Below, in pieces: positions 22,481 through 60,744 of a stretch of DNA of 64,000 nucleotides. The stretch is from the human T2T-CHM13v2.0 reference genome, Homo sapiens. A model generated the notes under the pieces. It had not been told where the DNA came from, did not search any database, and saw only the letters and a program-made list of their open reading frames with translations. Both the position numbers and the translations under genes were made by a program. The stretch lies in the NCBI RefSeq assembly GCF_009914755.1, contig NC_060928.1; one strand, written 5' to 3'. Within the stretch, counting starts at the first letter, position 1. Each line of letters starts with the position of its first letter.

Positions 22481-25400
22481 TTCTACAGTTAATAGGATCT
22501 ATTAATAATTTATGCCTCAGTATTATTGTGGCTAGAAATCGTATTTATAAAAGTTTACTATAAGTAAGTCATTGCAATGCACTGTTAAGTACCATGGGTA
22601 TTGTATTTATTTATGTGACTCTAAATTGATTCTTTCAGCAGTCAACACATCTTTACTGAGGGCCTACTATGTTCCTAGATTTGAGTGACAAATATTAAAA
22701 ACTCTCCAAGACTGCTTCTTTTGTAAAATGAGAGATTTGGAATAGATACTCCCTAAAGTCCCTAAAACTTGGTCATATGCTCAAGGGGAAACTACAGAAC
22801 TGCAGCCCCTTTTTTTTTTTTAACAAAAATCTTTAGATTATATCTACATAGGCATATTTGAGGGGAGGGAATCAAAAGAAAAGAACAGAAAATGTTAAAT
22901 TGAGCCAAGTGACTACTGATTTTTAAAATAAATAGAAATAAAAATTTTGGAAGCTAGCTAATAACTAAAATTTGAATAATTACATTATTGAACAATTCCA
23001 GTCAGTGAAATAGAGACTATGTGGTTATCTGGTATATTTAATCAGTAAAGATAATCAATTAGTATGATTTAGCTAGATGTGATATCTCAAGTATATCCTT
23101 TGTTTCTTTATGTAATTAAAAGTTTAATTCAAAATCCAATTGAATTCACTCAACTAATTTCTAATCAAATTGCTATGTTTTGTTTTTGTTTAAAAAGAAA
23201 CATATTTGAATTAATTCATAGGTGTCTGTTTTCCTTACTGAGTTCTATAAATATGACTACAATAATTCTCAGTGAGACACTAAGGAAATCTTATTTTATT
23301 CATGAATCAAATAAATGAAAACATCGCTAGGTCTAGAATGCATCAAAACATTTAAAAGACTGAACTTCTCTTAAATGTTGCATATTTTTAAAAATGAAAG
23401 CTCCTATGTTTCCTGGGCTTGGATTAATATGTAGAGTAGGAGTTGGTCTAATACCTAACCTACCAAATTCCTATGTAATGTTATAGGTTGACGATAACGC
23501 CTCACAGGAAAGAGGTAGGAAACAATGGTAACCATAGCAAGGGAAGTTTTCTAGCACAAGTAAAATATATGATATGACAATCAGCACGATGTAGTGTGAT
23601 AGCAGCAATCCTGTGTAAACGAGGAGATTCTGTGCATTGCTTCTTCAGAACTGTGGCTTTCACTGACATTTACAAATGAGGATGGGAAAATGATATGACC
23701 CTTTCTGGGCAGCCACTGCCATAAAGCTGAAAAGTGTTGCAATGTCTGACACGTATCTTATCAAGTTTGGATCGAACAATTTGGAAACACCCAATTTCTA
23801 GAGATGTAAGTAGCATTGAGGAAACAAACAGGATTAGTTTATGTTGCATCAGAGAGACAGAAATACTTCTTTTCTACTCATGTATTTGTATTGTATTAAA
23901 GATTTGGTTCTTATTTAAATAAAAAGGCCCCCATTAAATGTCCCAGATAGCATTTTAATGGGTATCATGAATCCTTAACTTTCACTGTTATCAAAAAGTT
24001 TTTATGTTTTTCTTAGATACTTGCATGGGTAGTTATAAATAGTAACCTGGATACATATAGAAGAAATTTAAGAGACATTATAGTGATGAAAGTTATTTTA
24101 TAATTATTCCCAGTTTGTTAAATAATTACTACTACTGTTAAAATATGTATTTAGCCAATATTTGAATAATTGAATCAATTTTCTTTCTTTTAAATTGTAG
24201 ATATAGACACCAACGTTAAAAGGAATTCTGGCAATTAGCTGGCTTATTTGCACCTAGGCATAAAATATGCTGGAAAACACTGAATGAATTCAATCTTACT
24301 GCTAATTATTTTCCTAGCAGTTAATAGGTAATGTCATTAGCACAAAAACGTAATTAGTGCTCAATACAACTAATAAACTGAATCAAATTTAATTGAAAAT
24401 AATCGTTTGTTGGTCAAATTTCTATTTTTTCCCAGATCTATTATTTAGCTAGTAACAAATTATTTTTTCAGTAAGCTTGGTAATATACCTGCATGAGAGT
24501 GAACTCAATTGTTTATATGAAAGTAAGCAATTAATCTAATTTATATAGATTGATTTTCCCAACCAATTAAACAAACCAGATAATTACCAAATTTCTAGTT
24601 AAGTTTCCCTTTTCAGTTTAGTTTTTAAAATAAAAGGTGTATTTTAGAGACCTGAGCAAAAGTTAAATTTAACTATTATTTAAAATTGAGTTTAATTTGA
24701 AAGTTTTAAGGTGAATAAGTTTGTGTATGTGTAAACAAACTGCACTGTTTTTTCTTATTTTCTTTTTTTATTTTCAGTTCCAAGTTCTAATTCAATGACA
24801 TAGTCCTGAAAGATTTGTCACATAAAGTATGATATGTGAGTAAACAGAGACTTCTAAATAAAATATAACACTATTTTATTAAATATTTTTAATTTACACA
24901 AATGGATTTACTGATATTGGGTATAAAATAATTAACTCCTCCTTCTATGTAGACTTTCTATTAATAATGTAAATAGCGCCTTCTAACAGTAGTTTTACAA
25001 TACTTACAACAGCATTTCTTTCAACTTCATAAAAAAGTAAATAGTTAAAGCACTGCACTTTCTCACATTTTTAATGGAAAGTAATGAGAAATAAAATAGC
25101 TAAACACCATGCGTTATTGAAAATCTCAGATATGTTGATGTCATACTAACAGTAAAACAGAAACAACTTCACTAATAATTATGGGGGAAATTTGGTTAAA
25201 CTAATCAATATAAAAATGCATACAGACACATCTCAGGTTAAATTACTATAAGGGGTTCAACCCACGTTAAAAATCTTACCCAGTCCCTACTCTGCAATTA
25301 AATGATATAGCATATATCCCTTTAAAATCCTGTATGTAGAATATACTGCATGTGTGCCCCCTCCTACATATTTTGGTGTTTTGAGGGAGACAGAGAATCC

Positions 25401-25738
25401 AGCATCCAGGCCTGGAGCTTTCTGTCTATTGTACAGTAGCTGTTTCAGACCTGTATGCTTATGTTTCCGATTCCTGGGAAGTTCTTTCTGCCGCAGGGCG
25501 TGCCCTGAAACACATCAAAAGAACCAAGTTCTACAAAAGAAAAAAGAAACTCAAGTAGGCTTGAACATACAAAGAGAGGGAGAAAGAGATGAGAAAGGGG
25601 CCAGGCAAAGTGTTGAATACAAAATGAGTTCAGGCAACCCCAGGAGCTCTTCATCACTTACATTTATCTTATTCTGTGAGGGGAGCGTCAAAACCAGCCC
25701 TGACATAAACCACCCACTGCCATTGACTTTGACTCTAT

Positions 25739-25805
25739 GTGTGAGAGTGAGTGTGTGTGTGTGTGAGTGTGTGTGTGTGACAGAGAGAGAGAAAGAGAGA
25801 GAGAG
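25739..25805. repeat. Compound (GT)n/(GA)n microsatellite
   Basis: Direct reading. Confidence 0.9.
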
Positions 25806-26812
25806 ATGTATTGAACATAAAAAGGAGCAGATTTCATGAGGTGTTACTAGTACCTCACAAGAATTAAAAAAGAAAACATTTTACAACACCAATGACCAAA
25901 GTCCCAAGAAAATAAATTTAGTATGGTTTTTGTGTAACTCCTCTATAGTGTTTACATCAGAATCTTCGAATTGTGCATTGCTTTAACATCTTTACTGCCG
26001 TATCTATATTGCACCTTCTGTACTTGTTATCATAAAGCATGTAAGATTTTTAATTTCTACTTGCAATATTTTGTGCATGTTTTATATTTCAGGGCAAAAA
26101 CCCATAGTCAACATCTCTGCAACAAGATAAATTCTCTATGATAAATTTAAAAAAACCATAATTAAGGGTCAAGGATCCAAATAACTGAAGGAATAATGGA
26201 AATGTTTTCTAAATCTATGCTAATTCCATCTTTGAAAGTAAGACCCCCAAATTCTGACCCTGTGTCCTGTTTAAAAGTGTAATGCAGTTGATAAACCCCT
26301 TGTGCAAAAGATCGTAAGCGCATTTAGGTGACTGTGTCAGGTTTTCTTAGCAGACTAAGCCAAGCTCTGCTCCAATGGCCTTGTTTGAACATAGAAAGTG
26401 TTTCAGTTGGCCAGCAGTCTGGAATGAAAGGTAGAATCCTCACATCCTATGTACATGCAGTGGAATTTTGTAGCCTGAAGGAACTACAGTGATCTTTAAA
26501 TTCATTTACAGGGTTTTCCTCTGTTTTGATTTTCTTCCATTTTCTTAAGCAAATAAAAGAATTAAAATTTTCAAGTAATTTACAATTTGGGGGCAATCAC
26601 ACTCAACTCTGATACTGTGACATGTCAGTAATTATCAGAATAAAATTATATCATTTCAATATCATTTATATAAGCAACTATCCCAAAAACCTGTCTTGAG
26701 AGAAAGAGAGAAAAAAGTAGAATTGATAAAGAAAAATTAAGCACGAGTACCAATTCTGAATGTTGCGAGTCATGGTCCAAGTTTTTTCTCCCTTCAAAAC
26801 CACACCTTTTTT

Positions 26813-27110
26813 GGCCGGGTGCGGTGGCTCGCACCTGTAATCCCAGCACTTTGGGAGGCCAAGATGGGCGGATCACAAGGTCAGGAGTTCGAGACCAACC
26901 TGGCCAACATAGTGAAACCGTGTCTCTACTAAAAATACAAAAATTAGCCGGGCATGGTGGCACGCACCTGTAGTCCTAGCCACTCGGGAGGCTGAGGCAG
27001 AAGAATCGCTTGAACCCAGGAGATGGAGGCTGCAGCAAGCCGAGATTGCCCCAACGCACACCAGCCCGGGCAACAGTGTGAGACTTCGTCTCAAAAAAAA
27101 AAACAAAAAA
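26813..27110 (+). mobile_element. AluSg-like
   Basis: GATCACAAGGTCAGGAGTTCGAG; TSD-like ACACCTTTTT on both sides. Confidence 0.95.
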
Positions 27111-27620
27111 CACCTTTTTCAAATATACTACACAAATTTATCATATGATTTTATGTGGTTCCTTTTTTAAAATTGCTTACCTTTTTCTGATTAGCATTTA
27201 TGCCACTGCAAAGTGTGAATGCAACAATTGAAAAAGCAGACAAAAGACTTTCCTAAAGATTAAAAACAAAAATGTAAAAAACTACAACCATCATCACACT
27301 GCATCCAATTGCCAGGTGTGTGGCGCTTCCTGGCTGCACAGTTCCTATATCTTCAATGTTAGGGAGAAAAGGAAAAAAAGCACAGCATACCATTCATGTG
27401 ACCCTCAGAATCCCAAGGGTCCTTCACTTTGCAGGTTTTACAAGCCAGCCTGAAGGTCAGTGTCATCTACCATGATGCCCCTGAATGTCAAGGTGTTCCT
27501 TAGGATCTAAAACTAGGATGTAAAAATAAATTAAAAATTGTCCCCACCATCCATGAGACTATCACAGACAACAGACAATTAAACAACTCATTATAATATA
27601 CCAGGTAAGAACTCTAATAG

Positions 27621-27974
27621 TAGTCATGTGTTGCTTAACCATGGAGATCCATTCAGGAAAAATGAGTCATTAGGTGATTTTTGTCAAAATGTGAACATCA
27701 CAGAGTGAGTATCCTCACCTAAACCTAGATGGTTTAGCCTACTACACGCCTAGGTTATATAATATAACCTATTGCTCTGAGGCTACCAACCGGTACAGCA
27801 CGCCGCTGTACAGAATACCGCAGGCAATTGTAACACAATGGTAAGTATTTGCATATCTACACATGTCTAAACATAGGAAAGGTACAGTAAAAATATGGTG
27901 TTAAAATATTATGACACCATTATTATATATGCAGTCTGTCATTAACCAAGACATCCTTATGCATCATGTGACTA
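27621..27974 (+). mobile_element. Tigger3a/MER7A-type MITE (second copy)
   Basis: AGTCATGTG...AAACCTAGATGGTTTAGCCTACTACACGCCTAGG...CATGTGACTA. Confidence 0.85.
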
Positions 27975-29185
27975 TATGGGACAAATAAAAGAGATCCATA
28001 CTCTGTAACATTCTGTTCTTGGGTAAGAAGTCCTTAAGAAATATTAGAATTTAATGATTCTAATACAGCAGAAGAGTTGTTTGCTGCACAACTTTTTGTT
28101 CTTTGAAGTCACAGGGCCCCTCAAGTAAAAATGCCCTCAACCTTTCAAAAGCCTAGCCATCCCATAAAACCAGTCCTACCTCCTCCATGATTTCTTCTTT
28201 TATTATTCTAAAACTTTATCTTCCTCTCTGCAACTACTATATCTATTAGTCTTCATTGTTTAACTTAGTACTTGGTTATGTGGAATCTTTAGGTGGTTGA
28301 TATTGTTTTATGTAATATGGTAGATGTATCTCCCAACCAGATTATGAGCCTATCCAGGGCAGACTTTATGTTGTATACCAGTGCATTTTCTATTTTCCAA
28401 AGTACCTAGCTTAATTTAACACAATTACAGTAATAGATAATTAGTAATAGCTTAATTTATTTTTTGGTGAAGAAATGTGTAAATTTTGCAAATGAGTATT
28501 TCTTCACACTGCATGCTAGTCTAAAATTCCCTAAATGTTTCTTTATGTAGCACCAGTTCTAAAGATGCTAATAAACATGACTCAAAAACTTAACTTCATG
28601 TTGAAATGTTAGGGACGTATTGATTTAAACATAGTTAAATAAATTATTTTGTACTGGACTTCTCAAAATCTTTAAAACTTGTATAATTAAATCTTCAAGA
28701 GAGGTAGATAAAATGCAGTGTTTCCCAAGTGTGCCTAATGAGAAAACTGTTTTTGAAATTAGTGTTCACAGACCTTACTATGGGAATTCTGGTGTCTTCC
28801 AAGGTCTTTAGAGCTGATTTCTACACTTAGTTCAGTCAAATTACTTGCTGAAATAACTGGTTGGTTGATTCAATTTATCTGGTAAGTGCTATCAATCCAC
28901 TAACACAATTAGAAACACTCAGTCTTCTCTAAATCCTGTAACATTAGCAAAGATTTTGATAAACATGAAACCTAGGTACAAGCTCTCCTAACAAGGACAT
29001 AGAGGTAAGGATCACACTGATCCCTTCTGATGCAGGCCTAAGTTAAGATTCACAGTTTGTGTCCACATTCAGGGTTCCTGCTGTTGATTTACAGTTTTTG
29101 ATTCTGTTATTTAATGGCTGAAATATGCCATCTACTCCTCAGGTTTCAAGAAAAAGGGAAGTTTCTTATTTAAGAGCATATATTC

Positions 29186-29548
<363 letters not shown>

Positions 29549-31144
29549 TTATAAACATAGTACAATTTATATATTTATTATTAATTGTTAGTGTTTTTAA
29601 GTTTATGCATGGTCTGGAACCAATAACTAAAAGTCAAGATGTAAGATTCAAGATCTAAGCAAACAGGCTCCAGGATTTCATGTGTGACTGTATATCGACA
29701 CCAACTTTGGTAGAACTCTCTGTTGACTCTCCATGTGAGAGCGATACTGCCTTTATTTTCTGGTGAAGATATTGAAGTCCTTATCCACTCTAAACTACCA
29801 AAGTATCCTAATCCAGACCTGGATGAACTCCAAAGCCCTCCTTGAAACAGGTTCTATTGAACCAGCAGCCAATATGCTCTGGTTTTTGACAGTTGCCTGG
29901 AGTCTAGAAAACCTGTGAAGCCCTACATGGGAGGGAGGTATGCATCATCAATCATCATGCTCCACTTTGTTTACGATGGACATTTAAGGTGGAGCCAATG
30001 CCTTATAAGTAGTGATAGGACCATGGAAAGCCAAACTTTGTCTAAAATCAACCTTGATGTGACCTTATGCTTTATTTCCCCACAGGCTTCATCCCTGCAG
30101 AATGAAACTACAATATCTGAAAGAAGGAATGCTTGGCCATTAAGGCCATGTTTGAAACTTGGCAGCAATACCTGGAGAAGCCAGGCATCCAGTCATAGCC
30201 TGCACCAATCATCACAAATGGGAGGACCCCTGGATGACCCATAACCTCTACCAGCACAAGAACTGCTGATCTGTTTTCCACCTTATTGATTTCAGGACCC
30301 ATTAGATCCTGTATTCAAAACTGGTGAGCTAATGTATTATCTCCTAAATTAAAAACTCCTATCCAGTTCAAGGAAGCTGACCTCACCAGATTGTGACACA
30401 CAGAAATCCTTGCTGTAATCCACTCATAGAAGAGTAACGACAGGACTGCTGCTTTCAGCCACAGGTCATGGATCTTGCCTGCGCCAGCCCATTAGCCTTA
30501 GAAGGATGCTTCTATGCAGTGGACTTCTTGCCTAGATGTCCTGGTCAAGAGCACTCACACTGAGGTCCAAGTCTATACCACAGTAGCTTTGTCCTCAGCT
30601 TCTATCTGTGCACGATTTTAAACTCTGGGTCTTAGGACTTCTCATAGCCAGAGATCTAGGGAGACATGAAGGACCAAGGAGAATGGCAGAACTTAACCAG
30701 AAAAAGACAGACGGCTCTTCTAATGCTTATTGAATCACTGGTAACTGTGGTTAAACATCTTTGGAGGTTTTATCACAGAATTCTCTCCATATTTCTAGAA
30801 CAACATTATTTCATACTTACCAAAATTGGCTACTTTCCTCCACACCAAGGGACATTACCTTTTTCCCCAATGGCCATCAAATGTCTACATTTTGCATGGA
30901 TTCCTGGCTAATGTAGAGCCTCCAGTTTGAATCCACACTTAGTACATGTGTCATTGTAAACAAAGATCACTTGGATCTTAGGATTACACCCTGGAATTGC
31001 AGTGCCTGTATATACTACCCAGCGCTAAGATAAGTTTGTTTTCCTTATACCCACTTCCACATTCATTTATAATACCTCTTCAATGCAAAATGTATTTTAC
31101 AAGTAAAATAGGGAAGCATCATATGAAATATCCCAGCCCCTCAT

Positions 31145-31280
31145 GAACTCAATCAGTTTTTATTGAGGACCACTATGTGCCAAGCACTGTATTACATTTT
31201 GGGAATACAATGATGAATGAGTCAGAATCCTTTCCCTAAGAAGTTTGCATTCCAGTGGGGAATCCAGATGATTAAACAGC
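31145..31280 (-). mobile_element. L2 3' end inserted in the Gypsy integrase
   Basis: TTTATTGAGGACCACTATGTGCCAAGCACTGT...GGGAATACAATGATGAA. Confidence 0.75.
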
Positions 31281-31589
31281 ATGAAGAGTGCTAGAACAGG
31301 CTAACAATGGCCATAAGTATTCCCTCATCTCTGTTCCTTAAGCACCCAGGGAGCTCCCAGTTGCCCAAGCTGATGCACAGATGATCTATTATGCCAAAGC
31401 AACCTAAAAGATTAAAGCCAACAAGCAGCAGTCCAGGAGGAGCCTCTACAAGTAGTGATCCCATGGGTTCTTTTACTAATATATTATTTCTAAATAATCT
31501 GACTTTCAAACAAGTTAGGTGTTCACTTACTGAGCACCTTCTTCATTATGTCATCAAACTGATAACCCTCAAGTTGTAGCTGCTCACAG

Positions 31590-31795
31590 GTGAAAATCAG
31601 GCTATAAAGTCAAAAGACAGAGCTTCAAGTTTGGGTCTTGGTGCTTACCATGACTGTGGGCAAATCACCTACTTTCTGGTCTTTGGTGTCATTCTTTGCA
31701 AAATAAAAGTAAAAACATTATATACTGTACCTACCTCACAGGGTTGTTGTGAGAATCAAGTGAAAAGTATGTGAAAGAACTTTGTAAACTTTGTT
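31590..31795 (+). mobile_element. MIR inserted between the Gypsy integrase C-terminus and chromodomain
   Basis: GGGCAAATCAC...ACCTACCTCACAGGGTTGTTGTGAGAATCAAGTGA...ATGTGAAAG..CTTTGTAAACT. Confidence 0.8.
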
Positions 31796-34700
31796 ATTTT
31801 TAATCACCCCATTTCCATGGGTTCTTCATCTTCTCTACGTAATACAATACTATAATTCACCTGAAGGATGTACTCTTACCCACTCTGTTCCTACCTCTCA
31901 CCCTTACACAAGTGAATTGTACAAAGAAGATGAAGTACATGCCTTCCTGGATATCTAGTTTCAGATGGAAATTCTGATACCTCACAGAATGACAAAGAAG
32001 TAGTCCGGAGGACCAAAACCGGGGCTCTACTGCCATAGAGACATTCCACCATTAACATACCACTGGACCTGGATATCAGCCAGCCCTCTTGATGGACAGT
32101 TGTCCACAGAGAACCCATTCTTGGCCCCAGAGAACTACTGCAGTGGTTCAGGGAATCATCTGGGTTCTTTCTGGCTGCCAGGGGAGTCACCAGCCATTCC
32201 AGGAAAGCGCATGCTTCCGAAAATAAAGCAAGAAGATTGGTTAAAGGAGACACTGACCCCATTAAACAAAATACAAGCCTTCCCTGACTGCCTGACCTGT
32301 GATAATTGGGCTGCCAAGGGAGATACCTAGACACTTATTTAAAGCAAGGATTTGGTGACACATTTCTTCATTTAGCAGTTTATCCCTGATGCCAACCTGA
32401 CTCTTACTTCTCTGATTTTTGATTTGTCGACTCCCTGTCTGTCTAACAGACCTATGATAAGATGTGTTTCTGGCTTTAAAATCCCATATGCTCCCCTTAC
32501 ATACACACAAACACACAAACATCCACACAATGAGGAATGCCAGCATTTTTCCTATCTATCTTACCCACTTGACCAAGCTTAGCCTGGCCTTCCATTTCTG
32601 ATTATTTCATATGGATTCTGATTGGCTGATCCAATTTGAGTTCAGTCTCACTGGACCAGTCGTAATGTATTCCAGGCTGAAACTCTGACTCCCTTTCAGT
32701 CCTGTGTAGAAGCTTAGAGTGCCCATGAAGCCACGATACCGATACCCAGCAATCCTTTAAACAAAGGGAGGTCTTTCAACTTAGAATACACATGCTTATC
32801 CAAAACTAAGGCCGTATTAGCATGTATCTCCAGGAATAACATAAAGTTTCTATAAAAGTTCTCCTGAGCGAATAGAATGGTGACTATGTACAAAAGATCT
32901 GATAGAATTGGCATCCAAGAAACTTTGTAATAAGGTCTTAAGCCTAAAATAGAAAATTTCAACTACAATTCATTCTTCAGCTTCCTAGAGCAAGGAAGGC
33001 AGATCACAGGGAAAAATCGATTCATTGTTTATATCAGTTTCCAAAATATTTTCAAATGGAATGGAAAATAATTCACAATTTCCTTCTTGCTATAAGTCAG
33101 AATGGCTGACTTCACACACCAATTCAGTGAACTAAGAAATTCCAAGACTTTTTCCTATGGCTATAATATTAAAAGTTAATTTTAATACCTAAAAAACATT
33201 AGCAATTAAAAACAGTGTCTTATATTGTAGTTTACAACCACCACTTGCTGTGGGAAGGGAGCCAGAGAGACTCAGAGTACCCGCCACCCAAGGTCAAAGG
33301 CACTGAGCCAAAGGATCCAGCAAAGAGCAGGCCCAAGCCAGGAAGAAAAGCTGTTGCTGAAATGTCAGACCAAGCATATGAAACAAGATGATCTCCAGGT
33401 CATGGTAGCTGAGAAAGGAGAATAGACAGATCCAAGCTGGGAACCAAATTAAGATGTTGGAACAGGTACCAGAGTGAATAAGACTGGGCAGGGGATGGAG
33501 TCACCTACGGCCACACGTTTGTCGTACAGTAGCCTTTCTTGTAAGTTGCGATACTACATCCTAGTTTCTTTTTCAGAAATAAAATCCTTGGTATTACTGA
33601 TGTAGCTTACATAGCCAGCCCCAAGCAGAAAACTCTTCCTTTCCCACAGACATACTTTTTACTATCTTGGTTGATATAATTTTCTTTTTCAGAGATTTTT
33701 AATTTTTTTCATGAATCTTTGATAGATTATTTTATCAATAAAAATTTTGTCAATAAATAATTTTCCTGATTGAACTCCAAGTCCTTCTTTGGTGATTAAA
33801 GTTGGTAATAAAAACAAATTACTTTAATTAATAGTTTGTCTGTACTTGCTTTTCCAAGGCGGTATGGAAGGGAGACAATGTTCTAACACAGATAACATAT
33901 GAGTGAGCTCGAAACAATTATAGTAAAACACCAGCCAGGGGTAGCCAAGGTGACGTTTGATAATGACACACAGTGAACATTTCAAGTTAGCTTCAATCTA
34001 CAAATTGTACCTCTCTTTCAAAAGTCAGAGGCAATCAACTCTGCCACTGCCGCATCAGAATGCAGAGACTGCCCAGTGAGAGACAGACACTCAGGATGGA
34101 AAGGAATAATGCAGGCAGCATTTTGCAGAAAGAGGTATCTGAATGCAGAGACCAGCCACTCCCCATAGCTGGGGAGAGTGCCAGGCTTTTCAGAGAACTC
34201 ACGTTAGAAGTTTCAGCAGTAGATGGAACTGGGCCAATAGACACAATGGTGGGGAGAGTGGGGAAGTTTCTGTAATTAAAGTCTGAATTCTGCACACTTT
34301 CAAACAGACTAAGAGCTCTCTACTATTGACAACAAGGACTTTTTTTTAAGTGATTGTTCTAACTGAACCTGGTAAGACATGAATCACTGTGGAAAATAAA
34401 GGAAGTCAGTGGAGTACAGACTTTGGGTTAAGAATGAAGAAAATAATCTGAATGGCACCAGAAGAGACAGTTCCATAAGCTCTATAGCAGGAGAGACTGG
34501 AAGTTACTAACAGAGGAATATTGCTGTGTGTCTTTTCCAGTATGCCATATATATAGTTAGGCTTAAACTGACTGCTTGGTAAAGTACAATTGGTTTTTAA
34601 TCTTTCACGTGGATTCGGTTCTTGTCTATTGAATTCTTGCATTGTCTTTATAAAACCCAGAATTTATAGAGAACTCTTCAATGTTAACAGAGTATCTGTT

Positions 34701-35029
34701 GATATCTGAATCAGATAGATGCTAACTGATAATTACAATCAATATTCCAGAATGGTCAAGCAATTCTTCACTTAATAAAATTTATTTTGAACTGAATATA
34801 TATAATTTATACCAGCAAGATATAATATCATTTGTTACGGCAGCACCTACTCTAAATATAATCCCAAATACCCCATCTTTCACTCCCCACAAACAAAACT
34901 AAATATCTGTAAGCTGAAAATCAACACAGAGAATTTTTTTTAATAGGTCAAACTTTGGTAGTAAGTAAACTATTATTTGAAGCAACTACTAAAAAAAGGC
35001 TAAACTTCTTGAAAGCATTCTTTCTTTCA

Positions 35030-35520
35030 ACTTGTATTGAATGCCAACCATGTCCGAGACACTGAATTAAGCAATGGATATAACATAGTGAGCAAAATCA
35101 TGGAGTTCACATTCTGGGCTCAGAGAAAGATATTCAATAATCATACCAATGAATGTGTAGTTACCAACTGAGAAAAATTCCTGAGGAAAGGAATAAGCTA
35201 CCAGGAGTGTGTATGACAAAGAAACCTAACCAAGTTTAGAAGACTTGCTGGAAGAAGTAAAGCTTGAACTAAAGACCAGTGAGCAGAAGTTGGAAAAATA
35301 GAAGTGGGGAGTATAAAACATTTCAGACAGAGGGACCCAGTTCTCATCTGAGAATTGAAATGCTAATAAGACCTGAAAGCAGGTTCAAGTGATTACAGCC
35401 CTGAAAGCAAAAGTTAGAATGGTAAGAGGTGAAATATATAGGTGGGTAGCAACGAAGCTATGCTGTCTTAGAGACCACACTAAGAAACCTCATCTTCAGC
35501 CTAACAGAATTAGAAGCGTC
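35030..35520 (-). mobile_element. L2 fragment
   Basis: TATTGAATGCCAACCATGT...CATGGAGTTCACATTCT... Confidence 0.55.
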
Positions 35521-35949
35521 TCAGCTTTTACTAAGAGTTAAGTCTTAAATTTGTTTGCCTGGTTGTGTTCTGTTGTACACATATAGAGTGCTTAATATAC
35601 ATGCATTTAATACATTCTGGATTTGTTTTCCACAATAAATTCCAGAGAACTGATACAATATTCTCCTAAGTTGATTATCAGAATTATGACTTAGAAACTT
35701 CCACCCAAAGAGTCATTCTGTGATGTACATTCAAGTGATGCCAAGAATATAGCTACTGTAGGTGTATCATGGCCATAGTGTATGGATTCTGTCTTCAAAA
35801 CAAGGATTCCGTCTTCAAAACAGATTTTTTAAATTGTCTCAATTGCAACAATACATATGAAAATACTTTGGAAGTTTTAATGAGAGTACATGAAGGAATC
35901 ATTACTGTTTACTACTCTACAAAGGACCAGGGCTCAACTTAGATTGGAG

Positions 35950-36860
35950 ATACATAACAAAGGAAACAGAAATACAGAGATGTCCCAATTTGTATGCACA
36001 GCAATAGCAACATTAGGTTGCAGTCTGTCCTCCATCAACCCTTCCCTCACCCCTGCCTTCAGAGATACCTGGTGCCTCCAACATCTGAGCATCTTCAGGG
36101 AGCTAGGGCAGGAATTGATCTTTTTCTCTCTGGCTTTCCCTACAGACTAAGGTGTAGGCTTTCTCAGCTCTGCTAAGTCAGTTATCACTTGTCCATCTGG
36201 TTCCAGTCTGTAAACATTTGTTGACATCTTTGATTTGTTACTGTTTCTTCAGCCATTCCCTTGTATTCTGCATTTATGCCTTTTGTGTCCTTTTTAATGG
36301 TGTTTGAGAAGGACATCTACGTGTTCAATCTAAAACAATTACCCGAAACTTTCTTTTTGTTTTAATTTGCATTTCCTGATTGAATACTTTTTTCATCTTT
36401 ATGAACCATGTTTACTGTCCCTTCACGAATTACCTGCTCTTATCTTTTGGCTGTTTTTCTATCAGGAACTATTCATTTTCTTATCAAACTTAATAGTTCC
36501 ATTTATATGATGCATATTAACTCGCTGTGTGTCAGATTAATTGCAAATATTTTTCCAGTTTGTCATTTACTTTTAATTTTTGTGATGTTTATGCATGAAA
36601 AAATATTATTTTGTTATAATTTACTATAGTTTGTGATTTTTTATTATTAAAAGTATTAATAATAAATATTGTTATTTAATTTATTAAATTAATTACTGAA
36701 TTAATCTTTCAGCAAGTTTAGGCATAGAATTCCCTTAATCAGCCTGATATCAGTTCAAAGATTACCTACCTTATACTCTAAATATATTTATAATTTCGTG
36801 TTTTTAGATTTACTTTTTAATTCATCTGGAATTTAATTTTTCATGTAGTATGTAAGGGGA
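35950..36860 (-). mobile_element. Old L1 (L1M/L1ME) fragments
   Basis: GCTTTCTCAGCTCTGCTAAGTCAGTTA...; TTTTAATTTGCATTTCC...TTGCAAATATTTTTCCAG. Confidence 0.6.
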
Positions 36861-36864
36861 ACTA

Positions 36865-36910
36865 TTAGGTTGGTGCAAAAGTAACTGCAGTTTTTGCCAT
36901 TAAAAGTAAT
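36865..36910. mobile_element. Half MADE1 (Hsmar1 MITE), one TIR only
   Basis: TA-TTAGGTTGGTGCAAAAGTAACTGCAGTTTTTGCCATTAAAAGTAAT; second TIR absent. Confidence 0.85.
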
Positions 36911-38035
36911 ATAAATAACTAATTGTTTGCCATTAAAAGTAATATAAAAACTAATTATTAGCATGTATACCGTCAAATATTTAAATATAGAATACAATTA
37001 TGTACAATTTAACATACCATTTAAAAGCAACTATTCATTCTACCACAACCTAAATCCCTATATAAGTATCTACTTTTAGGAGAACCCGAAATAAAATAAT
37101 TTGTACTGGAGATAGCTCAGGAAATCCATCCATCCTTAGCCTTGGAAATAGCCCTGGAAATCTATCCATAGCAACGAAGACTGCATTGTTACTGCTAAGT
37201 GGGCTGTGACAACCCCTGGTAGGGTCAGTATTACTAAGAGTCTCATTGGTGATGAATTGAGACAGAATGCAGGAGGAAGGGGACGTAAAGGGTTTATGCA
37301 ATATCTCTACTATTTCAGACATATGACAATAATAGTTGTCATGAAAGACTGCAGAAATGATAGGTTGCTTTTGAGTATCATGGATACACCACTGAGGGAA
37401 AATGGTGGACTCAAGTCAGCCAATCACCAACTCAGGACATGATGTTAAATTCAGAAAATCTCTATGACACCTGTAGCTACCACAATCAGAGGGCAGCACA
37501 GACGGAAAACAAAGCCTGATTGTGAGAGTAGCAAAATTGCAAAGATTTACTACACAGCCTTGGCAAATGTATTGTGCTAAACTCAAGACCCAGATAGAGA
37601 AGAAATGGGAACGTGACGACCAAAATGGAAACATCTGAGTGGATGCACCTGAATCTCTATATTCTGCTGAACCATCTAGGACTCTTAAAGTGACTCACTC
37701 TTTGGTATTCAAGATTAGCAAATTTCCTTTGCCTAGAGACCATGCAGAGAATTCGTGTGAGTAAGATGCCTCACAAGATAATAGTTGTTTTCATCAAGAT
37801 TCACCTCACCTTTCTGATAGTTTACAGGCATAATGCTAGCTCCAATCTTAGCATGGCCCACCTGCAGAAGTGCCATTCTATTTTGGAAGCAAAGCCATTA
37901 TTCACCAAAAATTCTGCAACATTTAGCTGTTATATTCTGAGACGAACCTAGAGTATAGATGCCTTAGAATGGATCTTTAGGTGGGTGACTGAGGAAAAGG
38001 GTATCAGTTAAGACTGGAAAAGGCAGTTTACTAGT

Positions 38036-52297: not shown

Positions 52298-53362
52298 ATG
52301 TCCCGCCTGCTGCATGCAGAAGAGTGGGCTGAAGTGAAGGAGTTGGGAGACCACCATCGCCAGCCCCAGCCGCATCATCTCCCGCAACCGCCGCCGCCGC
52401 CGCAGCCACCTGCAACTTTGCAGGCGAGAGAGCATCCCGTCTACCCGCCTGAGCTGTCCCTCCTGGACAGCACCGACCCACGCGCCTGGCTGGCTCCCAC
52501 TTTGCAGGGCATCTGCACGGCACGCGCCGCCCAGTATTTGCTACATTCCCCGGAGCTGGGTGCCTCAGAGGCCGCTGCGCCCCGGGACGAGGTGGACGGC
52601 CGGGGGGAGCTGGTAAGGAGGAGCAGCGGCGGTGCCAGCAGCAGCAAGAGCCCCGGGCCGGTGAAAGTGCGGGAACAGCTGTGCAAGCTGAAAGGCGGGG
52701 TGGTGGTAGACGAGCTGGGCTGCAGCCGCCAACGGGCCCCTTCCAGCAAACAGGTGAATGGGGTGCAGAAGCAGAGACGGCTAGCAGCCAACGCCAGGGA
52801 GCGGCGCAGGATGCATGGGCTGAACCACGCCTTCGACCAGCTGCGCAATGTTATCCCGTCGTTCAACAACGACAAGAAGCTGTCCAAATATGAGACCCTG
52901 CAGATGGCCCAAATCTACATCAACGCCTTGTCCGAGCTGCTACAAACGCCCAGCGGAGGGGAACAGCCACCGCCGCCTCCAGCCTCCTGCAAAAGCGACC
53001 ACCACCACCTTCGCACCGCGGCCTCCTATGAAGGGGGCGCGGGCAACGCGACCGCAGCTGGGGCTCAGCAGGCTTCCGGAGGGAGCCAGCGGCCGACCCC
53101 GCCCGGGAGTTGCCGGACTCGCTTCTCAGCCCCAGCTTCTGCGGGAGGGTACTCGGTGCAGCTGGACGCTCTGCACTTCTCGACTTTCGAGGACAGCGCC
53201 CTGACAGCGATGATGGCGCAAAAGAATTTGTCTCCTTCTCTCCCCGGGAGCATCTTGCAGCCAGTGCAGGAGGAAAACAGCAAAACTTCGCCTCGGTCCC
53301 ACAGAAGCGACGGGGAATTTTCCCCCCATTCCCATTACAGTGACTCGGATGAGGCAAGTTAG
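52298..53362 (+). CDS. ATOH1: Atonal bHLH transcription factor 1 (ATOH1/HATH1/MATH1), single exon, 354 aa
   Basis: ATG at 52298 ([16 protein letters not shown]...), poly-Pro stretch, atonal-class b[61 protein letters not shown], Ser-rich C-terminus ending ...[16 protein letters not shown] at 53360-53362. The ORF-track start at 52241 is a TTG, not the true start. Confidence 0.99.
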
Positions 53363-58535: not shown

Positions 58536-60393
58536 TGAAGATCTACTTCTCTTTTCTAGCCAGAGATGCATTTCTTCACTCACTCTGTTATTCTAAAGAC
58601 TTTTTTTTTAATGTTAGTAAAATTCTCAGAGTTTAAAGGAGAAGCCAACATATGGGCATTGTCTTCCACGTGTCGTTCCACGGGCGGGTGCCTGACTCTT
58701 CTTTCCTTGGCTCCTTAAGAAAAGTTAAGCATTTCAATACAAAGATTGTAGGCCTTTCTCTTCTCAGGATGCCCCTCCCTTTTCAGCTCTGCTTTCTCTG
58801 GTCCCAGACAAACAAATTAGGCTTTTGCTGCCTAATCTACAAGTAGGCCAGGCCCATTCTGCAAGTTCATACTTTTCCCCAGTGAAACCAGAAGGCTCCT
58901 CCACAGAGCTGAAAAACAAAGTGCTCTTCAATATAAGTATTTTTCACTATTGTTTTCAACTATTCTGATTAGTGAGTTAAGAGACATGATAAAGAAAACG
59001 CTGTTTGGATGTCCAGCAGGTTCACCACAGCTGCAAGGCCTAGATACTGTTAGGTTGATGAAGAAGGTGTGAGCTAGGATTTGGGGTCTTGGGATTTCTC
59101 AAGCCAAGAGATGTCGTTACTCTTTTGGACCACTGGACATTTGTTTGTCATTTCTAGATACAGTTCTCCACAATTCCTCCCACCTTCCTGTCTCTACAAA
59201 CTCTTAAAGATGGGGTGCTGGTAAGGGAGGGGCTAGGATTGGAAGGGATCTTCAATGATCTGGGGCAGGGGTGAAGTAGCATTTGAGGGAGGAGTAGGCA
59301 TCATTCTTTGTACCTTAGGGGGCCACAAAACTAGGAGAGATCTGAAATCACTGGGCCACAAGTTGACCAGGAAGATGGGAGGCCAGTTCTTTTTGTTTTC
59401 AATAATGCATCTGCTTCTGGAAACAACCTAGCAGAAATGCACAGGATTATTTATTTTCTTTAAGTTTTCTTCCAACCCAAGGGATGTTGATTCAGTCAAT
59501 GAAAAATCCCAGGAATTTGCATACAGGGTTTCCAGGCGATCAGATACTAGTAGAGCAGAGGATCCCTGAGACACTAATGTAAGGGAGTTTCTATCAGACA
59601 CCTTCTTGAGATTGTCTATGAAAATGGAAACTAGCTAATAATTCCCCCCTACCTCCTTATACAGTATTGGTTTTTTTTGTTTTGTTTTGCTTCTGAAAAA
59701 AGAGAAGCAGGCAACGTAGCTTCTTGGATCCCATGACTTGACTTTGTTGTTTTCAGGCTATTTGGCCTGGGACAATGTGATCCAGCCCTAAGATGTCTCA
59801 ATTTCAAACGTGATACCAGCTGCCTTTGGAGGCATAAGGGCATCATTCCAGGAGGTACAACACATTCACCCTCTGACTGTCCAACATAAGTGACTCAGTG
59901 GGAGAAGCCAAAATGATAACCAGTGAGTGTTTATGAAAAGCAAGGAGCAAGACCAACAAACTCTGAAAGAAATAGAAAGATGGGCGAAGATTGTCAGAAA
60001 GCCTTTGGTTTAAGGGAGGTGGACCAAGTCACATCACTCTGTAATAACTCTAGCCTGAATTTAGAGGGTCATCAAATTTGATGGAAACATTAGCCACCTA
60101 TCAATTGACTGAAGAAATAGCTATTCTGCTGTGCTGGTAATGGCAATCTGAGAATACAGAGAAAACCATTTTCATGATGTAGAAAGGCAATGAGCCCAGG
60201 AAACAGTGTAACTTCCTTTGGTGACTAATTCTTTCATTTCTTTCAAACTCTTCCTCACTGTCTCATATAACCCACATCCCTCTTGTTTTCATCAATGAAT
60301 GGGCACTTACTGAGCACCAATCTATATCAGGGGAGTTAACCACCCTAGGAGATGCCAAAGAATAAAATAGAGCTCCCTCTCCTAAAGGACTTA

Positions 60394-60744
<351 letters not shown>

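What the first reader, a model, noticed from the sequence alone, without database searches (positions are those of the whole stretch)
29630..32060. Ancient sushi-like Ty3/Gypsy pol fossil hidden across broken reading frames
Seen: no ORF in the track reveals it, but frame-hopping on the + strand yields collinear motifs. These are the RT thumb (ELQS...FY), Ty3-type RNase H (VE/ANA...PYALF...PAE*NYNI*KKECLAIKAMFETWQQYLE/ARHPVIACTNH; cf. canonical PAERNY....ELLAIK.AFEEWRHYLEGA.HP..V.TDH), integrase (H...H.G, W..I..FITE, LHG, HP, AK...K..A.K, KL, KL.L) and a chromodomain. Known: Gypsy elements are extinct in mammals and survive mainly as the domesticated sushi-ichi-derived RTL/SIRH genes (PEG10, RTL1) and a few MamGyp-type repeats. 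Inference: the L2 (31145-31280) and MIR (31590-31795) insertions date this copy to before L2/MIR extinction, so it may be a relic of the lineage that produced the RTL genes.
Basis: partly seen in the sequence, partly recalled or inferred. Interest (0 to 1): 0.8.

Follow-up and report, generated by a model that had tools for sequence, protein, structure and literature searches.

The report
Decayed Gypsy retrotransposon relic beside GRID2
A badly decayed piece of an ancient Gypsy-type retrotransposon gene lies at the far end of GRID2 on human chromosome 4; the relic is real, but relics of this kind are already known, so the find is sound and fairly ordinary.

Summary
The core observation holds. 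Window 30073-30177 (+) encodes, through two in-frame TGA stops, the central part of a Ty3/Gypsy-type RNase H. Support: Pfam RT_RNaseH at 30.1 bits, E 5.5e-7; 55 of 55 chromovirus Pol proteins by tblastn; 47 bits against my own Pol profile versus 18-20 bits for strand controls.

A collinear integrase-core motif at 31002-31094 is probable. It is hit by 29 of 55 Pols, best E 0.004, and 2 of 150 nulls reach its score.

The RT thumb, an RT motif upstream of the Alu, the zinc finger and the chromodomain are visible by eye. None beats real-DNA null segments, and Pfam finds none of them.

A specific tie to the sushi/RTL lineage is not shown. Human RTL1 does not match, and RTL1-like relatives match worse than fungal chromoviruses.

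Dating by nested L2/MIR is insecure, because Gypsy sequence beyond 31094 is unproven. Age rests instead on orthologous copies in other, unnamed records.

Ancient Gypsy fossils in human DNA are a known class (Repbase families; Frith 2022). I could not check whether this copy is already annotated. Low interest.

The parts
30073..30177 (+). RNase H core of a Ty3/Gypsy-type Pol, with two in-frame TGA stops at 30103-30105 and 30118-30120
   Evidence: Pfam PF17917 30.1 bits, E 5.5e-7. 55 of 55 Pols by tblastn. Profile columns 605-639 score 47.3 bits versus 17.7-20.1 for strand controls. 7 of 13 IMG/VR Gypsy loci hit by tblastx. 3 of 3 orthologous ORFs that cover it hit the same profile columns.
30180..30293 (+). 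Continuation of the RNase H domain in another frame; the frame changes between 30177 and 30180
   Evidence: The best local profile match in 30178-30420 starts one column after the anchor (columns 641-652, 11.8 bits). P0106 aligns at offset -1 nt. Ortholog P0013 runs through in one frame. By score alone the stretch is not above null: 29 of 400 nulls reach it.
30301..30345 (+). End motif of the RNase H domain (YRPG..N..ADALSR type), back in the first frame
   Evidence: The 99-aa single-frame tblastn alignment of P0116 over 30073-30354 has E 8.5e-6. Coordinates.
30739..30915 (+). Possible integrase catalytic-core N-part (weak)
   Evidence: P0046 and P0051 align at offsets -90 and -93 nt with E 0.94 and 1.4. 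Banded profile test of columns 786-965: 16 of 300 and 30 of 300 nulls reach the score. No Pfam rve hit.
31002..31094 (+). Integrase-core C-terminal motif (the ..LP.AEFAYN.. region), collinear with the RNase H
   Evidence: 29 of 55 Pol C-terminal parts hit it, best E 0.004, at offsets -160 to -256 nt. Banded profile test: 20.8 bits against a null of 14.5 +/- 2.7, with 2 of 150 nulls reaching it. It ranks 5th in the whole window for that sub-profile.
29047..29142 (+). Possible RT motif (FGL.NAP..FQ type) upstream of the Alu (unproven)
   Evidence: 7 of 55 Pols, E 0.25-3.6. The offsets of -315 to -357 nt equal the size of the intervening Alu. Profile test with the Alu left out: 20 of 200 nulls reach the score. 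No Pfam hit.
29801..29836 (+).
   Evidence: The profile places it on the thumb columns 499-511, but at 11.4 bits against a null mean of 15.3; 189 of 200 nulls reach it.
31921..32060 (+).
Evidence: Profile test with L2 and MIR left out: 217 of 300 and 186 of 300 nulls reach the score. No Pfam Chromo hit.
29184..29493 (+). Alu inserted into the upstream part of the region
   Evidence: Masked stretch in the hub's annotation. Direct-repeat families D1/D2 pair it with the Alu at 26811-27110.
31145..31280 (+).
   Evidence: One other genomic match, 81% identity over 63 nt, to 31158-31220.
31590..31798 (.). MIR-type SINE piece; the core lies at 31709-31798
   Evidence: 22 other genomic matches at 80-97% identity to 31709-31798. 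The family name is recalled.
30086..33831 (+). Alternative terminal exon of GRID2 (RefSeq models) that starts inside the RNase H remnant
   Evidence: Hub annotation. A polypyrimidine tract plus AG lies at 30084-30085, and AATAAA lies at 33807-33812, 15-19 nt before the annotated ends.

Best explanation
WHAT IT IS: a dead, single-copy remnant of the pol gene of a Ty3/Gypsy (Metaviridae) LTR retrotransposon, most like the chromovirus branch in its RNase H.

HISTORY: it integrated in an ancestor shared with other mammals. It then decayed neutrally, gaining stops, frameshifts and deletions, and was interrupted or flanked by later repeats (Alu, MIR and an L2-like piece).

WHAT IS SHOWN: the RNase H remnant at about 30073-30345, and the RNase H then integrase gene order typical of Gypsy.

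WHAT IS PROBABLE: an integrase-core piece at 31002-31094.

WHAT IS INFERRED ONLY: RT pieces upstream to about 28790-29142, and any integrase C-terminus or chromodomain downstream.

FUNCTION: it encodes nothing today. Its one present-day role on record is passive. RefSeq GRID2 models use a splice acceptor inside the RNase H remnant (30084-30085) and a poly(A) signal at 33807-33812 to make an alternative last exon.
For: RNase H identity:
- Pfam RT_RNaseH above its cut-off.
- 55 of 55 Pols hit the same 105 nt, 48 of 55 at E < 0.01 and 20 of 55 at E < 0.001. The best hit elsewhere in the window is E 0.019.
- My profile gives 47.3 bits versus 17.7-20.1 for reverse-complement and reversed controls, and this is the top hit of the RH sub-profile in the whole window.
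- 7 of 13 independent Gypsy-like IMG/VR loci hit it.
- A genuine Gypsy fragment (P0017) was the only non-orthologous hit of the whole frame in 1.84 billion proteins.

Gypsy rather than ERV:
- Six-frame translations of 30 human loci that carry RT_RNaseH (28 ERV-like loci, RTL1 and a chr15 Gypsy fossil) give 0 hits on 30073-30177 at E <= 10.
- A chromovirus RNase H probe finds RTL1, this locus (E 0.00175 genome-wide) and two others.

Integrase downstream and collinear.

Orthologous copies: 13 of 13 junk ORFs from other records align over 29763-31955 at 31-94% identity.

Decay: no open frame longer than 127 aa across the claimed fossil (29630-32060); the longest ORFs in 29000-33000 are 147 aa (- strand) and 127 aa (+ strand).
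Against: - Only about 35 codons are individually significant.
- RT, thumb, zinc finger, integrase C-terminus and chromodomain do not exceed nulls taken from real DNA of the same window. Pfam sees none of them.
- No LTRs were found.
- No paralogue was found in the human genome by DNA or protein search, so family membership is untested.
- With a second chromovirus probe (P0116) the locus ranks only 11th of 76 matches, so it is not uniquely well preserved.
- The references were mostly fungal or metagenomic. No vertebrate chromovirus Pol could be obtained, which limits both sensitivity and lineage assignment.
Confidence: 0.85

Rival explanations
1. The RNase H-like piece comes from an ancient endogenous retrovirus (ERV), not from a Gypsy element. 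ERV pol genes also carry the RT_RNaseH Pfam domain.
For: PF17917 hits at least 150 loci in the human genome. Judging from the 30 fetched and their tblastn patterns, nearly all look ERV-like. Two ERV loci give weak hits (E 0.86 and 4.1) at 30310-30375.
Against: 0 of 180 six-frame translations of 30 such loci hit the core 30073-30177 at E <= 10. tblastx of 29500-32500 against 31 fetched genomic loci (the 30 RT_RNaseH loci L004-L033 and L003) finds no hit to any of the 30 RT_RNaseH loci at E <= 1; the one hit, E 0.033, is to L003, an unrelated chr4 locus. Gypsy and chromovirus Pols hit at 1e-4 to 3e-6. A chromovirus RNase H probe recovers this locus at genome-wide E 0.00175 together with RTL1.
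Confidence: 0.04
2. It is a decayed duplicate (pseudogene) of a domesticated Gypsy gene such as RTL1, which keeps PR, RT and RNase H-like regions. On this view it is not an independent element insertion.
For: RTL1 is the best match in the human genome to chromovirus RNase H probes and retains RT/RNase H (PMC11011659, passage read). A meerkat RTL1 aligns to the same 24 codons at E 3.6.
Against: Human RTL1 (988 aa of the ORF) gives no hit at the locus among 15 HSPs at E <= 50. Fungal chromovirus Pols are far closer. An integrase motif follows, which RTL1 lacks.
Confidence: 0.03
3. The remnant has been exapted. It works as part of a GRID2 isoform (3' exon/UTR), or as a regulatory element in the GRID2-ATOH1 interval, and is kept by selection.
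For: RefSeq models start a terminal exon at 30086 with a good acceptor and end it after an AATAAA (hub annotation). Frith 2022 reports that very old TE fossils tend to lie near developmental genes (PMC9004415, abstract).
Against: Orthologous copies differ as much as neutral DNA would, with 31-40% identity in junk frames for the more distant ones. All frames are full of stops. Only non-selected transcript models use the exon, and no expression data were seen.
Confidence: 0.08
4. Chance resemblance in non-coding DNA.
For: Most of the listed motifs score within the null range.
Against: The core has Pfam E 5.5e-7 among 90 tiles, hits by 55 of 55 Pols, and 47 bits versus 20 or fewer for controls.
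Confidence: 0.01

Closest known systems
Catalogued human Gypsy repeats (MamGyp-int with MamGypLTR1-3, LTR85/88/104_Mam, X1-X4_LR in Repbase; MamGypsy2-I in Dfam)
   Same: They are ancient, heavily decayed internal parts of Gypsy elements in mammalian genomes. Their existence shows that Gypsy fossils in human DNA are a known class (PMC5753468, passages read; the MamGypsy2 name was seen only in the listing).
   Different: Membership could not be tested because no Dfam/Repbase library was available. No paralogous copy was found in the human genome by DNA or protein search. The best-preserved other Gypsy RNase H fossil found (chr15, 94 bits to PF17917) shows no detectable similarity to this locus by tblastx, and its RNase H motifs look different by eye.
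TE protein fossils of Frith 2022 (frameshift-aware LAST against RepeatPeps, hg38)
   Same: It found 546,821 TE fossils in human, of which 1,641 were new. That total includes 83 pre-amniote Gypsy fossils, of which only 3 were known to RepeatMasker (PMC9004415, tables seen in passages).
   Different: The four Gypsy fossils named in the passages I read lie on chromosomes 1, 2, 19 and X.
Chromovirus Pol proteins (mostly fungal/metagenomic references P0018-P0137)
   Same: The RNase H core is 40-60% identical over 28-37 residues, and a collinear integrase-core motif follows.
   Different: No chromodomain could be shown. These references are distant in host, and no vertebrate chromovirus was available for comparison.
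RTL1/PEG11 (domesticated sushi-type Gypsy gene)
   Same: Both derive from Metaviridae, and both retain an RNase H-like region that Pfam RT_RNaseH detects.
   Different: RTL1 is an intact 1377-codon open frame. This locus is shattered. The two share no detectable similarity beyond a 24-codon match at E 3.6.

Membership tests
Ty3/Gypsy (Metaviridae) pol | RNase H domain of the RT_RNaseH type | tested here: met
   PF17917 at 30.1 bits versus a cut-off of 24.8, E 5.5e-7. 55 of 55 Pols hit it.
Ty3/Gypsy (Metaviridae) pol | Gene order RT - RNase H - integrase on one strand | tested here: met
   The integrase-core motif at 31002-31094 lies downstream of the RNase H on the same strand at a collinear offset. 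29 of 55 Pols hit it, best E 0.004, and 2 of 150 nulls reach its score. The RT side is only suggestive.
Ty3/Gypsy (Metaviridae) pol | Reverse transcriptase domain (RVT_1) | tested here: inconclusive
   No Pfam hit. 7 of 55 Pols hit 29047-29142 at offsets equal to the Alu length. Profile test: 20 of 200 nulls reach the score.
Ty3/Gypsy (Metaviridae) pol | Integrase H2C2 zinc finger and DDE core (Pfam Integrase_H2C2, rve) | tested here: inconclusive
   No Pfam hit. Banded profile test: 16 of 300 and 30 of 300 nulls reach the score.
Ty3/Gypsy (Metaviridae) pol | Flanking long terminal repeats | tested here: not met
   There are no long direct repeats in 24000-38000 other than Alu pairs. At this degree of decay LTRs could be unrecognisable, so this weighs little.
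Chromovirus branch | Chromodomain at the integrase C-terminus | tested here: inconclusive
   One hit at E 0.25 at noise level. Profile test: 217 of 300 and 186 of 300 nulls reach the score. No Pfam Chromo hit. References were fungal and metagenomic only.
Sushi-ichi / RTL lineage | Closer to sushi-type or RTL sequences than to other Gypsy lineages | tested here: not met
   Human RTL1 gives no hit. RTL1 orthologue E 3.6, nearest RTL1 relatives E 0.12, a medaka Gypsy protein E 4.4, versus 3e-6 for chromovirus Pols. True sushi-ichi was not available.
Endogenous retrovirus pol | RNase H/connection region resembling human ERV copies | tested here: not met
   0 hits on the core from 180 translations of 30 loci.
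MamGyp-int / MamGypsy2-I (Repbase/Dfam) | Nucleotide match to the family consensus | not testable with these tools
   No Dfam or Repbase library is held. Own-genome DNA and protein searches find no paralogue, which is weak evidence at this divergence.

The most novel reading that the evidence does not exclude
This is a single-copy pol fossil of the chromovirus lineage that no repeat library labels. It is older than the placental radiation and is one of very few non-domesticated Gypsy RNase H remnants still recognisable in human DNA. Its RNase H remnant supplies the splice acceptor of an alternative GRID2 terminal exon.
Probability: 0.15. Interest if true: 0.4.

Novelty: new member of a known kind. 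Interest (0 to 1): 0.2.

Why it matters
The value is mainly record-keeping. It adds or confirms one more Metaviridae fossil in a mammalian genome, a class with few recognisable pol remnants.

If it proves to be unannotated and to predate the placental radiation, it would be a small data point on when Gypsy elements were last active in the mammalian stem lineage.

It is also a tidy example of a TE remnant donating a splice acceptor to a host gene (GRID2). It does not open a new question.

Tried and rejected
- PDB sequence search of the three frames: nothing relevant.
- Word-index homologue search with the RNase H piece: only an orthologous junk ORF.
- Whole-frame search of 1.84 billion representatives: 13 orthologous junk ORFs and one Gypsy fragment, with no full Pol.
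- RTL1-based search for vertebrate sushi-like Pols: 19 proteins, none a better reference than the fungal set.
- IMG/VR scan: 13 Gypsy-like loci that hit only the RNase H core.
- First version of my frameshift-aware alignment: gap costs were too cheap, so it chained noise over 5 kb. I discarded it.
- Wide-band version downstream of the anchor: 20 of 120 nulls reach the score.
- SH3_Tf2-1 (PF24626) in the human genome: nothing above cut-off.
- A cluster of 14 Pol hits at 60358-60492: it turned out to be the translation of an Alu, so it is chance.
- 'Second-best chromovirus RNase H in the genome': this did not hold with a second probe, where the locus ranked 11th of 76.
- Rfam on 28000-34000: no family.
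Full report
WHAT THE SEQUENCE SHOWS

The window is human T2T chr4:97,092,001-97,156,000. Between 29000 and 33000 no stop-to-stop frame on either strand exceeds 147 aa, and none on the + strand exceeds 127 aa.

I read the three + frames of 29601-32400 with X at every stop and scanned them against Pfam. Only the frame that starts at 29602 matched, and only RT_RNaseH families:
- PF17917: 25.3 bits, E 1.8e-5, residues 157-193.
- PF17919: 23.6 bits, below its cut-off.

I then cut the same region into 90 tiles of 60 aa. The tile 30052-30231 scores 30.1 bits (E 5.5e-7) for PF17917. One neighbouring tile scores E 0.034. Four unrelated families appear at E 0.037-0.24. No tile matches RVT_1, rve, Integrase_H2C2 or Chromo. 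Rfam finds nothing in 28000-34000, and PDB sequences give nothing relevant.

GETTING REFERENCE PROTEINS

A word-index search with the RNase H piece returned a single protein, P0004. A search of 1.84 billion representatives with the whole frame returned 14.
- Thirteen of these (P0004-P0016) are short ORFs that align back to the window at 31-94% identity over 29763-31955. I take them to be junk-frame translations of orthologous DNA in other, unnamed records.
- The fourteenth, P0017, is a genuine Gypsy-type RNase H fragment (E 6.5e-4).

Using P0017 as bait gave 291 proteins at E <= 0.001, of which 120 were listed. Many are full chromovirus Pols carrying RVT_1, RT_RNaseH, Integrase_H2C2, rve, SH3_Tf2-1 and Chromo. 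Those that are named come from fungi.

THE RNASE H IS REAL

- tblastn of the 55 Pols of 800 aa or more against the whole window gave 213 HSPs at E <= 10.
- All 55 Pols hit 30061-30225 on the + strand. E ranges from 2.9e-6 to 0.11, with 20 of 55 below 1e-3 and 48 of 55 below 1e-2.
- The best HSP outside the + strand of 28-33 kb is E 0.019, inside the ATOH1 coding region. The next best is 0.26.
- A profile HMM built from 30 of these Pols (1220 columns) places 30073-30177 on columns 605-639.
- My frameshift-aware alignment gives that block 47.3 bits. The reverse complement and the reversed sequence of the same 5.5 kb reach 17.7-20.1 bits.
- Scanning the whole window on both strands with nine sub-profiles, the RNase H sub-profile has its top hit here. 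No other sub-profile has its top hit at the locus.
- Seven of 13 Gypsy-like loci from IMG/VR hit the same core by tblastx, best E 9.6e-5.
- All three orthologous ORFs that cover the core hit the same profile columns. The other ten ORFs give nothing.

The core carries two in-frame TGA stops, at 30103-30105 and 30118-30120.

The frame changes between 30177 and 30180. The domain goes on at 30180-30293 and returns to the first frame at 30301-30345, where the domain's end motif lies. Two results support that continuation:
- In ortholog P0013 the core runs into the next conserved motif in one frame.
- P0116 aligns over 99 residues (30073-30354) at E 8.5e-6.
By score alone these flanks are not significant. 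29 of 400 nulls reach the C-flank score and 70 of 400 reach the N-flank score.

GYPSY, NOT ERV

PF17917 also hits ERVs. In the human genome 150 loci were scored out of 1513 candidates. The top hit is a chr15 Gypsy fossil at 94.4 bits, and RTL1 scores 42 bits. This locus is below the listed range.
- Six-frame translations of 30 of those loci gave 1074 HSPs against the window, but none on 30073-30177.
- tblastx of 29500-32500 against 31 fetched loci gave no hit to any of the 30 RT_RNaseH loci at E <= 1; its only hit, E 0.033, was to L003, an unrelated chr4 locus.
- A chromovirus RNase H probe (P0121 residues 546-700) found four places in the genome: RTL1 (66 bits), this locus (28.7 bits, E 0.00175), the chr15 fossil and one on chr22, out of 27 candidates.
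- A second probe (P0116 residues 201-360) found 76. This locus ranked 11th at E 0.026. Most of the others match only the N-terminal half of the probe.
So the locus is Gypsy-type, but I do not claim it is exceptionally well preserved.

INTEGRASE: PROBABLE

I searched the Pol parts C-terminal to the anchor against 30178-32400 only.
- 29 of 55 hit 31002-31094, best E 0.004, at offsets of -160 to -256 nt from the zero-indel diagonal.
- Two Pols align over 30748-30915 at offsets -90 and -93 nt, with E 0.94 and 1.4.
- Noise clusters on the wrong strand in the same search reach E 0.27 (8 Pols) and 0.34 (17 Pols). Only the first integrase hit therefore stands clear of noise.
- In a banded profile alignment of columns 843-1010 the real score is 20.8 bits against a null of 14.5 +/- 2.7 from random segments of the same window. 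2 of 150 nulls reach it.
- For columns 786-965, which exclude that motif, 16 of 300 and 30 of 300 nulls reach the score under two gap settings.

RT, THUMB AND CHROMODOMAIN: NOT SHOWN

- Upstream, 7 of 55 Pols align an RT motif to 29047-29142 (E 0.25-3.6). Their offsets of -315 to -357 nt equal the length of the Alu at 29184-29493, which is suggestive. With the Alu left out, however, 20 of 200 nulls reach the profile score.
Four Pols instead align it, out of order, to RT motif 1.
- Downstream of 31094, with the L2-like and MIR pieces left out, 217 of 300 and 186 of 300 nulls reach the score.
- A wide-band test of everything downstream was also null, with 20 of 120 nulls reaching the score.

These negatives were obtained with fungal and metagenomic references, so a vertebrate chromovirus Pol might do better. 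I could not obtain one. An RTL1-based search gave 19 proteins, and none matched the locus better than E 0.12.

LINEAGE

- Human RTL1 (988 aa read from the genome) gives no HSP at the locus.
- A meerkat RTL1 matches 24 codons of the core at E 3.6.
- The two nearest non-orthologous relatives of RTL1 match at E 0.12, and a medaka Gypsy protein at E 4.4.
- Chromovirus Pols reach 3e-6.
The RNase H is thus chromovirus-like. Sampling was very uneven (55 chromovirus Pols against 6 others), and a special tie to the sushi/RTL lineage is not shown. From recall, not from any call, sushi-ichi itself is counted among vertebrate chromoviruses. The two ideas are therefore not exclusive.

AGE AND INSERTIONS

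- The stretch 31709-31798 has 22 other matches in the genome at 80-97% identity, which fits a MIR core.
- The stretch 31158-31220 has one other match. Calling it L2 rests on recall.
- Ortholog P0012, which is 34% identical in a junk frame, spans both pieces. Both were therefore present before that lineage split from ours.
- Because Gypsy sequence beyond 31094 is unproven, these repeats may sit beside the fossil rather than inside it.
- The range of identities among the orthologous ORFs (31-94%) fits an old insertion evolving at about the neutral rate. I did not try to learn which organisms those records come from.

IS IT A KNOWN REPEAT?

- No LTRs are detectable.
- DNA and protein searches of the human genome find no paralogue. 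At this divergence that says little.
- Kojima 2018 lists the human Gypsy families MamGyp-int, MamGypLTR1-3, LTR85/88/104_Mam and X1-X4_LR (PMC5753468, passages read).
That study found 546,821 TE protein fossils, of which 1,641 were new, including 83 pre-amniote Gypsy fossils of which 3 were known to RepeatMasker (PMC9004415, passages read).
- The searches for 'MamGyp-int' (7 papers) and 'MamGypsy2' (3 papers) gave listings only, and none concerns this locus.
- GRID2 and ATOH1 do not occur in the main text of PMC9004415.
I therefore rate this as a new member of a known kind, with a good chance that existing annotation already covers it.

SIDE OBSERVATION

RefSeq GRID2 models have a last exon at 30086-33827/33831.
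- The exon starts 13 nt into the RNase H core, behind a pyrimidine tract and an AG at 30084-30085.
- It ends 15-19 nt after an AATAAA at 33807-33812.
- Depending on phase, the reading frame would close after 6, 18 or 52 codons.
This looks like ordinary exonisation of a TE remnant.

VERDICT

The RNase H remnant is real, an integrase piece is probable, and the rest is unproven. The sushi/RTL link and the L2/MIR dating are not supported. Interest is low.

Noticed in passing
window 30084-30086 and 33807-33831: The alternative GRID2 terminal exon of the RefSeq models begins inside the RNase H remnant, behind a good splice acceptor. It ends 15-19 nt after an AATAAA. This is a TE-derived last exon, and the frame closes after 6, 18 or 52 codons depending on phase.
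   Followed up: partly
G000 chr15:69118551-69118841 (-), locus L004; also chr15:69176254-69176451: This is a much better preserved Gypsy-type RNase H fossil (94.4 bits to PF17917, with five stops). Its sequence type differs from that of this locus. A second hit lies 58 kb away.
   Followed up: partly
window 60358-60492 (+): 14 Pols give weak RT-like tblastn hits here (E 0.26-10). The stretch is the start of an Alu read as protein, so this is a chance match.
   Followed up: yes
proteins P0004-P0016 (public protein collections): Public metagenome and genome protein sets contain short 'proteins' that are junk-frame translations of mammalian non-coding DNA. Several read TGA as W. They swamp searches that use vertebrate fossils as queries.
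   Followed up: partly
window 52824-52979 (+), ATOH1 coding region: This is the best off-target tblastn hit of a Pol (P0114, E 0.019). It is probably a compositional match in the ATOH1 coding sequence.
   Followed up: no
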